Made by a program: the position numbers and the translations under genes. Below, piece by piece: positions 49,201-52,200 of a stretch of 64,000 nucleotides of DNA (position 1 is its first letter; each line of letters opens with the position of its first letter). The DNA is from Eledone cirrhosa (lineage: Eukaryota). The notes beneath the pieces were generated by a model. The model made no database searches. It saw nothing but the letters and a program-made list of their open reading frames with translations, and was not told the origin of the DNA. The stretch spans positions 46,190,001 to 46,254,000 of the forward strand of contig OZ024748.1 of the NCBI GenBank assembly GCA_964016885.1, read 5' to 3'.

Positions 49201-52200
49201 TCTCCCCCGCTCTCTCACTTCCTTTCTCTATCTCTCTCCCTCTCTCTCTCCATCTCTCTCTCTCACTTCCTCTCTCTCTCCTTCTCCGGAAGAAATCTGC
49301 TGTATTTAAATCTAGAGAGAAAAGATGCTCCACCGAGTTTAAAATGCCCTGGAATCACTGCATGTCTATAACAACGTTCTCTACTATTACTACAACCACT
49401 GTTACTACTACTACTACTACTACTACTACTACTACTACTACTACTACTACCACTATTACTACTACTACTACTACTCCTATCACTGTTCCTACTACTACTA
49501 CTACGACCACTGCAGCTGCTACTGCTATCACTGTTCCCCCTCCTTCTACTACTAACATTACTATCACCACTACTACTACTACTACTACTACTACTACTAC
49601 TAACCCCAGTATTACTACTACCACCGCTACTAGTAATACTACTACTACCACTGGTACTATTCCTCCCACTACTACAACCAAATAGGGTAGCGACAGCAAA
49701 CTGAAGGATTTCAACTCATATCACGAAAAGGACGTAAACATTTAAAAGTTTCGTTCTGTCTGCCATTTTATAGACGGCACCTCTTCTATCCTCTGATATT
49801 ATCTAAACTATAATAAAGGAAGGTCTGCGGGACTGCGTACGGTTTATAATTGTTTATCCCATTAGTAAAATAAGTTGGATTACTTTGAATAAATAATGAA
49901 TGAATATTACATAATTTATCTACTAAATTTCGTGGTTGTTGATTAAATATATTTTGTTTATTTAAAGATTCACTTCTTTAACATTTCTGAAATGTCAACA
50001 CTTCCGTTTGGCGATCGCTTAAATAAACATACTAATTTTCTGTCACTAATTTTCTCCTAATGCAGTTTATATATAATATCGTCTTTTTTAATGTATCATG
50101 GATTACGTTACTGATTACATAAGACAGTGTAACGCAGTCTTCGTTCAATTTCTATGTATTATATATTGTCAATTACGATTTTATTTGATGTATCATATCT
50201 ACATGTATATATACTTGCGTATAATATCAATATACACACTACACATGATAGCTGAAAACCACCCGAGGGTGGGCTTTCTGCTAGAAGTTATAAAAATATA
50301 TGATGTGTATGTGTGTCTACTTACAAAGAAGACCGAAGTCATAGTAAAGTTCTCTCTCTGTGGCATTTGATGGTAACACAGTGCCGTTGGGGGCTCTGAA
50401 ATCGTTGTCAGGGTTGCCATCGACAACTCCCAGTAAACCTTGGGTGAGCATCGTTGAATGCATTGTTGGTGGATAGGAGACACCAATGTCCAGGACGGCG
50501 TTTGCTTGGTTTATATTCAGGGTTAAACCTTAGATAAAATAAAAATAATAATAACAACAACAATAATAACAACAATAATGATTTATTTAGGCACAAGGCC
50601 ACCAATTTTGGGGCGGGGGGATGGGGAGTCGATTAAATCGACCCCAGTGCGTGACTGGTACTTTATTTTATCGGCCCCGTAAGGATGAAAGGCAAAGTTA
50701 ACCTCGGCGGGATTTGAACTCAGAATATAAAGGGTCATAACTATGCTGCAAAGCAGGGTGTCTGACGCTCTACCGATTCTGCCAGACCACCGCTCTGAAA
50801 ATCGTAAATAATTGTTTCTACTTTAGGCACAAGGCCAGCAATTAACCAGTGTATTACTGGTACTTTATTTCATCGACGCCGTAAGGATGAAAGGCAAAGT
50901 TAACTTCGGTAAAATAATTGTTTCTACTTTAGGCACAAGGCCAGCAATTACCCAGTGCATTACTGGTACTTTATTTTATCGACCCCGTAAGGATGAAAGG
51001 CAAAGTCAACCTCGGCGGGATTTGAACTCAGATCGTAAAGGGACGTAACTATGCTGGAAAGCATGGCGTCCGACCCTCTACTGATACTGCCAATCCACTA
51101 AAATAATGATAATTTTTAATAGCTCCTGATTACGGCAAGGCCAACAATTTTGGGCAGAGGGGCAAATCGATCAAATTGATGCCAGTGTATTACTGGTACT
51201 TTATTTTATCGACCCCGTAGGGATGAAAGGCAAAGTTAACCTCGGCGGGATTTGAACTCAGAATGTAAAAGAGGAGGAGAATGAAGTTGACGCTGACAAT
51301 GAAAATGAATATGATGATAAGGAGGCAGAGACGGAGGTTGAATACGAGGAGGAAGAACATGTATTGGAGGAGGAGGTGGAGGACGAGGGAGGAGATGATG
51401 ATGACGATGGTGATGATGATGGTGACGATTGTGATGGTAAGCAACATGAGATACCTTCCTGGAATATTCCCTGGATTCCTCCGTTTTCCAATTTCTTCAG
51501 CTTCATAAATTTCATCGACTGGTTGAAGTTTTTGTCATTCACAAACTGAACGGTGAAATCAATACCATTGGCGATGATGATGATACCTAAAAGAGAGGAT
51601 GTTGAACCGCTAATAACACACACAGTCCCATTTAATTACGAATATATATATATATATATATATATATATATATATATATATATATATATATATATATATA
51701 TATATATATAACGAAGGAAATGTGGTAAGGAACCAGGTGGACCATAACGCACCAAAGTACTCAATACTTAGGGAAGTAGAGTGGGTAATAGGAACCAGTA
51801 AGACCCCGACGGCTGAGCTCAAGCCGTTTCGACGGCTAATTCTGGACGTCCAGAATTAGCCGTCGAAACGGCTTGAGCTCAGCCGTCGGGGTCTTACTGG
51901 TTCCTATTATATATATATATATATATATATATATATATATATATATATATATATATATATATATATATATATGTGTGTGTGTGTGTGTAGAGGTTATATT
52001 TAATTTGTTGGGATACAACAAGCAAAATATATTTTATAACTGATATAAAGCACTCAACAAATTATTGGAGTAAATATACGATATATTAACAAATAGAAAC
52101 TATATCTATAAAACCAGGAGACTCCAACCGTGAAGGTTGCATTTTTCAGGGTATGTCAATATTTATTTATAAAACTAATCTATATTATATTTTATCTGAT

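What the first reader, a model, noticed from the sequence alone, without database searches (positions are those of the whole stretch)
51710..51908. Palindromic element family that looks like a hammerhead 3' half folded back on stem II
Seen: in about 10 copies the arm reads GAAA-CGGCU(UGAGCUC)AGCCG-UC-GGGG, i.e. hammerhead GAAA, a stem III with a palindromic GAGCUC loop, and a GUC site. It is preceded by a long hairpin (GACGGCUAAUUCU..AGAAUUAGCCGUC; GACAGCUAGAUCCGAAC..GUUCGGAUCUAGCUGUC at 56808-56858). No copy has CUGANGA; the reverse complement of the 3' arm sits there instead. A second family at 46354-46420 (GAAA-CCG-CCGAGCUCA-CGG-UA) is similar. Inference: nascent cDNA snaps back at the stem II hairpin and self-primes a second strand, producing MITE-like palindromes from a retroelement.
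Basis: partly seen in the sequence, partly recalled or inferred. Interest (0 to 1): 0.7.

Follow-up and report, generated by a model that had tools for sequence, protein, structure and literature searches.

The report
Head-to-head Penelope retroelement stubs
These mirror-image repeats are the cut-off ends of an abundant Penelope-like jumping gene, likely made when two separate DNA copies of one RNA grow from the two sides of a cut and meet head to head; the layout is known, but the copies argue against the published fold-back explanation.

Summary
The palindromes are real, but they are neither MITEs nor likely stem II snap-backs. They are the shortest insertions of a Penelope-like retroelement (PLE) with Hydra-clade protein motifs. 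A parent with an open 719-codon RT–GIY-YIG frame matches the 51710 arm at 97%. Its type I hammerhead has a UUGANAA (U3-A8) core, not CUGANGA. The 'long hairpin' in the stubs is the inversion itself; native stem II and its loop differ. The genome holds at least 47,099 such arms and 9,301 short palindromes of one subfamily. Centres vary (32 distinct in 43). Every stub pairs one arm with an 80-nt tail and one without (43 of 43); so do 37 of 39 longer pairs. In 16 of 24 resolved long pairs the tail-less arm reaches over 100 nt further into the element than the tailed arm, so neither arm is a copy of the other. Best model: two cDNAs primed from both ends of a cut (TA)n on one RNA, at two start sites, then end-joined. 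The architecture and U3-A8 cores are published for other PLEs; this scan noted the same stubs and model on other DNA.

The parts
51710..51847 (-). Tailed arm: PLE pLTR from -17 to +120 (0 = G12 of GAAA)
   Evidence: 97% identical over 138 nt to both tailed pLTR copies of parent L304
51710..51790 (-). 80-nt tail between the two outer ends (+40 and +120), the inferred two RT start sites
   Evidence: present on exactly one arm in 43 of 43 stubs; parent reads on into the ORF leader
51848..51904 (+). Tail-less inverted arm, -17 to +39; the next bases TATTA fit both element and target
51865..51892 (+). Hammerhead 3' half: GAAA, stem III with GAGCTC loop, GTC site (C17 = 51887), 3' strand of stem I
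   Evidence: parent folds as a three-way junction; stem pairs counted
51803..51830 (-). Same hammerhead 3' half in the tailed arm
51831..51864 (.).
   Evidence: native 5' strand and loop II differ; centres vary
51642..51709 (.). (TA)n target, left
51905..51972 (.). (TA)n target, right
1..121 (.). Copy cut by the window edge (tailed arm)
5326..5503 (.). Palindromic stub, GATCTAGC subfamily
8739..8922 (.). Palindromic stub
14823..15009 (.). Palindromic stub, GATCTAGC subfamily
23503..23863 (-). Two direct arms; the upstream one runs into the ORF leader and then jumps to -18 of the next
26920..27055 (-). Single tailed arm
27549..27708 (.). Palindromic stub with internal deletion in the tailed arm
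28147..28497 (.). Two adjacent palindromic stubs (28147-28286 clipped; 28298-28497)
56684..56899 (.). Palindromic stub, GATCTAGC subfamily, tailed arm reaches -35 into native loop II
59408..59460 (+). Single tail-less arm
46268..46431 (.). Second family: tailed plus tail-less head-to-head stub; no parent core found
   Evidence: relatives L258 and L271 show both arms with one tail; L266 and L272 look alike

Best explanation
The palindromes are extremely 5'-truncated, head-to-head insertions of an endonuclease-bearing Penelope-like element with Hydra-clade motifs, likely made by twin target-primed reverse transcription. Shown: parentage, (TA)n target, two fixed outer ends (+40, +120) used one per arm, arms of the same subfamily, variable centres in loop II. 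Inferred: the RT-GIY-YIG protein, probably as a dimer, cuts both strands of a (TA)n tract; each 3'-OH primes a cDNA on the same RNA (or two RNAs of one source), one at each start site; both usually stop between about -10 and -25, in hammerhead loop II; the two free 3' ends are joined with 0-1 nt overlap or short locally templated inserts, and each then serves as template for the other's second strand. When the cDNAs run further, the same layout is kilobases long. Why they stop in loop II is open: an RNA 5' end there (about 0.5) or a structural pause (about 0.35). Hammerhead cleavage seems not to be needed: both arms span the GTC site.
For: Parent L304: inverted tailed arm + direct tandem ending tail-less, open 719-codon frame with RWR, SDKT, YRDD, CxCX5C, VIY...YIG, CxxC, CxH. 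One tailed + one tail-less arm in 43 of 43 centre-selected palindromes (two tails have internal deletions, one short arm is interrupted, two tailed arms run on into the ORF leader), 17 of 18 in unselected tiles, the 18th clipped, 37 of 39 classifiable long pairs. Arms share the subfamily tag in 29 of 37 scorable stubs against 10.4 by shuffling, maximum 19 in 10,000. Long pairs resolved with >100 nt difference: tail-less arm further in 16 of 24, by up to 2-3 kb. Stubs: tailed further 18, tail-less further 14, equal 11 of 43. In vitro a Poseidon PLE cuts and extends both strands and starts at two sites flanking the tail (PMC11167929).
Against: No biochemical or RNA data for this family. Palindrome centres can be deleted after insertion, which could make a tail-less arm look longer; in stubs differences of 3 nt or more favour the tailed arm 13 to 5 (read by hand). 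Exceptions: L243 two tailed arms, L317 two tail-less arms, L286 two tailed ends, L200 arms of different subfamilies. Long pairs were picked from close opposite-strand cores in the first 100 rows of three searches, so are not a random sample; 3 were unresolved and 4 of 43 unclassifiable. Both start sites are followed by TAT, whereas the in vitro PLE starts without homology to the target. Stop zone: only 8 of 29 copies that run into the ORF leader begin at -4 to -25, and 3 of these 8 are short jump products.
Confidence: 0.72

Rival explanations
1. Self-priming: one cDNA started at +120 folds back (at stem II, or at any small hairpin), copies itself and is joined to the target at +40.
For: Palindromic junctions of PLEs were read as self-priming in PMC3846280 (there on an antisense template). 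Arms match in subfamily; centres cluster in stem II/loop II; larger stub asymmetries lean to the tailed arm.
Against: Stem II junction in 0 of 100 listed of 2,125 copies (ATTT subfamily); native loop 5' half in 0 of 43 centres (that pattern could only catch fold-back at the inner hairpin); tail-less arm longer in 16 of 24 long pairs; a copy-back should often run to the end and give two tails, seen in 1 of 39 long pairs and 0 of 43 stubs.
Confidence: 0.14
2. The stubs come from a dedicated short non-autonomous RNA (about -25 to beyond +120) that parasitises the PLE protein; still two cDNAs, but from a mini-element.
For: 53 of 54 arms in 664 kb of unselected sequence stop before the core; short direct tandems that jump from the ORF leader to -18/-36 exist.
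Against: The same subfamily has full-length, 97% identical parents with an open frame, and 6,121 copies keep the core; sizes form a continuum.
Confidence: 0.1
3. MITE of a DNA transposon that duplicates TA.
For: Short, inverted-repeat, high copy, flanked by TA.
Against: Unequal arms, 32 distinct centres in 43 copies, direct continuity into an RT/GIY-YIG frame.
Confidence: 0.02

Closest known systems
Hydra clade of C-terminal EN+ PLEs, e.g. Hydra-1_Obim (PMC8557442)
   Same: Single RT-EN frame, RWK-like and DKT motifs, CxCX5C linker, no CCHH, CxxC and CxH near the C-terminus, (TA)n target, type I hammerhead in the pLTR; N-terminal and RT motifs line up by eye with the Hydra-1_Obim sequence shown.
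   Different: All Hydra hammerheads in File S2 have CUGANGA cores and stem III of 3-4 bp; this family has UUGANAA, a 6-bp stem III with GAGCUC loop and a long loop II. Unit 3.1-3.6 kb against 'generally <3 kb'.
EN+ PLE insertion unit with inverted 5'-truncated copy and one-sided tail (PMC8557442; PMC3846280)
   Same: Head-to-head arms, palindromic junction, tail on one end only.
   Different: Tail 80 nt instead of 30-40; most insertions are stubs of about 200 bp; published reading is self-priming or EN-mediated resolution, not twin cDNAs.
Poseidon PAc in vitro (PMC11167929)
   Same: Two internal start sites bounding the tail; both strands cut and extended; hammerhead cleavage not required.
   Different: Other clade; starts lie inside the ORF there, about 90-170 nt upstream of the ATG here; that paper does not derive the inverted arm from the two cDNAs in the parts read.
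U3-A8 hammerheads of Schistosoma Cercyon PLEs (PMC4209133)
   Same: Same core covariation, about 1,300 hits there.
   Different: Those are minimal hammerheads; here stem III is complete and a quarter of listed cores are C3-A8 mismatches.
L1 twin priming (recalled, no call)
   Same: Two target ends prime two cDNAs on one RNA and are end-joined.
   Different: L1 arms cover different parts of the RNA; here they overlap, giving an inverted duplication.

Membership tests
EN+ Penelope-like elements | Single ORF with RT and GIY-YIG endonuclease | tested here: met
   719-codon open frame with YRDD and VIY...YIG. Pfam is weak: GIY-YIG E 0.069, below cut-off, on one piece, no hit on the whole frame; 1,458 unnamed relatives at E<=1e-10.
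EN+ Penelope-like elements | Partial tandems (pLTR), inverted 5'-truncated copy, one-sided tail | tested here: met
   L304, L083; 43 of 43 stubs and 37 of 39 long pairs
EN+ Penelope-like elements | Type I hammerhead in the pLTR | tested here: met
   Three-way fold predicted for L096 and L304, not for L052 cut short; 89.9% of cells paired, 3 stem II pairs change on both sides across 13 copies (only three related subfamilies, pair-count controls not exceeded)
Hydra clade | C-terminal EN, RWK and DKT motifs, CxCX5C linker, no CCHH, CxxC/CxH motifs | tested here: met
   RLRWRT, HSDKTG, CNCPDRSIC, single C inside the GIY-YIG core, CNLC, CKH (against the description)
Hydra clade | (TA)n insertion | tested here: met
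Hydra clade | Canonical CUGANGA hammerhead core | tested here: not met
   First 100 of 6,121 cores: 73 U3-A8, 25 C3/A8, 2 U3/G8, 0 C3-G8; 4 C3-G8 among the first 100 of 389 in the GATCTAGC subfamily
Hydra clade | Placement in the clade on an RT tree | not tested
   No named Hydra proteins were held as stored sequences; filed as Hydra-like, not as a member
MITE | Fixed terminal inverted repeats and fixed internal sequence | tested here: not met
Non-LTR retrozyme | Tandem units each with a complete hammerhead | tested here: not met
   Stubs lack the 5' core; the one tandem array read (L324) also lacks it
Active hammerhead ribozyme | Self-cleavage | not testable with these tools
   No RNA data; activity of U3-A8 cores is recalled, not found in the passage read

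The most novel reading that the evidence does not exclude
Penelope-like elements integrate by obligate double priming: a dimer starts one cDNA at each of two sites of one RNA, and the two cDNAs make each other's second strand, which explains inverted pLTRs and the one-sided tail at once. In this family the hammerhead has drifted to U3-A8 and to a mismatched C3/A8 core in still-spreading subfamilies, and serves as a landmark (RNA start or stop signal in loop II) rather than as a nuclease.
Probability: 0.3. Interest if true: 0.68.

Novelty: new variant of a known kind. Interest (0 to 1): 0.42.

Why it matters
How PLEs make their inverted ends and one-sided tail is unsolved; the papers read call it self-priming or endonuclease resolution and ask for tests. 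Tens of thousands of young copies with an intact parent give a direct genomic test and a ready substrate, and the first counts favour two independent cDNAs. The family also shows that searches for CUGANGA miss hammerheads in Hydra-like elements, and that such stubs can be mistaken for MITEs or microRNA hairpins.

Tried and rejected
CTGANGA within 35 nt upstream of the arm: 49 matches, the 20 read were chance junctions with flanks, other elements or centre inserts; the spacing was too short to catch native cores. Rfam: only microRNA-like hairpin matches below cut-off. Pfam and PDB sequence search on the whole frame: no hit. Sequencing runs: no RNA holder listed; contigs of three runs of unknown kind only show the repeat is present. 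Target-site duplication: hidden in (TA)n; short shared flank words were as frequent in controls (56 and 51 of 400), only L194 (direct) and L190, L218 (inverted) stood out. Parent of the second family: exact motif matched only itself; DNA search gave 42 matches, 23 loci read, no core. Transcription start in loop II: partly supported only. Branch-point or splice-site explanation of the stop zone: considered, not tested. Paper searches for a twin-cDNA model in PLEs: Penelope + twin priming + inverted + tail gave one unrelated review; Penelope + octopus + palindrom + microsatellite gave none; two searches gave the papers cited. The library lacks most subscription papers, so this is no proof of absence.

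Full report
Observation. The arm, hairpins and second family are at the coordinates given. The window holds 13 insertions or pieces at 11 loci, most inside (TA)n. No copy has CTGANGA. The copy at 51710 has a tailed arm (51710-51847, minus strand), a blunt axis at 51847/51848 and a tail-less arm (51848-51904). Positions below count from G12 of GAAA (51865 = 0). The window lies in a 3.0-Gb genome with 47,099 exact arm matches and 9,301 short palindromes of the 51710 subfamily, both against 0 in controls.

Parent. Extending the arm upstream gave 1,559 copies; most of the 30 read continue into a shared 3' region and RT or GIY-YIG coding pieces. L304 is a full insertion of the 51710 subfamily: an inverted tailed arm, then a direct partial tandem with a 3,118-nt unit and an open 719-codon frame, ending tail-less in (TA)n. 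The 51710 arm matches it at 97%. The protein has RLRWRT, HSDKTG, YRDD, CNCPDRSIC, VIY...YIG without CCHH, CNLC and CKH, the motif set given for the Hydra clade in PMC8557442 (passages; supplement part 2 and passages). Pfam and PDB give no support beyond a sub-threshold GIY-YIG match. No tree was built, so I call it Hydra-like.

Hammerhead. Parents read ACCCC-UUGANAA-G-NN-stem II-loop of about 33 nt-stem II-GAAA-stem III-GUC-GGGGU. L096 and L304 fold as three-way junctions (z -1.84 for L096, 0.09 for L122, so folding energy alone is weak). Across 13 copies three stem II pairs change on both sides. Of the first 100 of 6,121 cores, 73 are U3-A8, 25 C3/A8, 2 U3/G8 and none C3-G8 (counted by hand); 4 of the first 100 of 389 in a sister subfamily are canonical. 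All Hydra hammerheads in File S2 are CUGANGA. U3-A8 was reported in Schistosoma PLEs (PMC4209133, parts 1-2 of 4).

How the palindromes arise. Centres vary: 32 distinct in 43, with 1-nt overlap in 14, blunt in 10, 4-nt overlap in 2 and inserts in 17 (some inserts reflect parental variants I did not hold, others repeat neighbouring bases). In 664 kb of unselected sequence 53 of 54 arms stop short of the core, mostly at -3 to -27. Outer ends are fixed. I fetched the first 43 of 50 listed palindromes, chosen by centre only: all 43 pair a tailed with a tail-less arm (the script's two 'short-short' rows have tails with internal deletions). Of 43 longer head-to-head loci, 39 could be classified and 37 show the same (dropped: L241, L245, L246, L305; exceptions L243, L317). 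Arms of one insertion share the subfamily tag in 29 of 37 against 10.4 expected.

Snap-back test. Fold-back at stem II predicts an inverted arm joined to the native loop; none of the first 100 of 2,125 copies with the native loop shows it (a sister subfamily), and none of 18 unselected palindromes keeps the whole loop. Any single-cDNA fold-back must start at +120 and predicts that the tailed arm reaches furthest. Among long pairs with a resolved difference over 100 nt, the tail-less arm is longer in 16 (L235-L240, L242, L304, L308, L309, L311-L314, L318, L320) and the tailed arm in 8 (L228, L230, L231, L233, L306, L307, L310, L319); 7 differ by less, 3 are unresolved, and the sister-subfamily pairs were not measured. 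Several junctions abut within 5 nt. So each arm often holds sequence the other lacks. In stubs the split is 18, 14 and 11 equal (after correcting two mislabelled rows that cancel), though differences of 3 nt or more favour the tailed arm 13 to 5. Later deletion of palindrome centres remains a caveat.

Mechanism. The simplest account is twin priming from both ends of a cut (TA)n at two start sites on one RNA, followed by end-joining of the two cDNA 3' ends. PMC11167929 (parts 1-2 of 4 and passages) shows for another PLE two start sites bounding the tail, extension of both strands, a predicted dimer, and no need for hammerhead cleavage. PMC3846280 (passages) reads palindromic junctions as self-priming; PMC8557442 describes the inverted copy and one-sided tail and calls the mechanism unresolved. 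bioRxiv 10.64898/2026.07.22.740005 (part 1 of 5) defines retrozymes, which these stubs are not. Why cDNAs stop in loop II is open. Prompted by earlier scan notes I checked 30 of 109 copies that run into the ORF leader: 8 of 29 resolved begin at -4 to -25, 20 further upstream and 1 at +30; 3 of the 8 are short jump products. This fits either an RNA start there plus read-through transcripts, or a pause. No RNA run was available.

Second family. 46268-46431 has the same tailed plus tail-less layout, as do relatives L258 and L271; no core-bearing parent was found, so its PLE origin is by analogy.

Verdict. A known kind of insertion from a new Hydra-like family with a variant hammerhead core and an unusually long tail. 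The scan noted the same stubs and a twin-cDNA reading on other DNA of this and other genomes (unchecked notes, not counted as support; one search found nothing by sequence). What this window adds is the intact parent, the core variant and the long-pair test against self-priming. Interest 0.42.

Noticed in passing
window 46112-46166 (+), inverted arm 45974-46009: Complete type I hammerhead-like motif of an unrelated family, also with a TTGAAAA (U3-A8) core; a head-to-head pair of relatives is in L149.
   Followed up: partly
window 11368 (-): Another U3-A8 hammerhead-like motif; CTGANGA motifs of other families at 10713, 12469, 44298, 52956/53081 (head to head), 53658, 62458.
   Followed up: no
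G000, first 100 rows: 25 of 100 cores are C3/A8 mismatches, found in head-to-head pairs such as L312, L313, L318, L319, so such copies still inserted.
   Followed up: partly
L190 1265-1355 and 1578-1668; L218 beside 1457-1576: The flank beyond (TA)n is duplicated in inverted orientation on the other side (91 bp at 98.9%; about 22 bp), 2 of 43 stubs; L194 has a direct duplication instead.
   Followed up: partly
L324 (G000:C3:214145800-214148700): Tandem array of 273-274 nt units from -36 to just past the ATG, alternating in two variants, with an inverted arm upstream; similar single jumps in L279, L286, L303 and window 23503-23863.
   Followed up: partly
window 40231-40830, 41000-41395, 54125-54508 (-): Frames holding pieces that look like EGF-like and VWD-like exons of a host gene (domain names recalled).
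   Followed up: no
window 20465-21178 and 42066-42455 (-): Fragments that look like a non-LTR retrotransposon RT (family name not tested).
   Followed up: no
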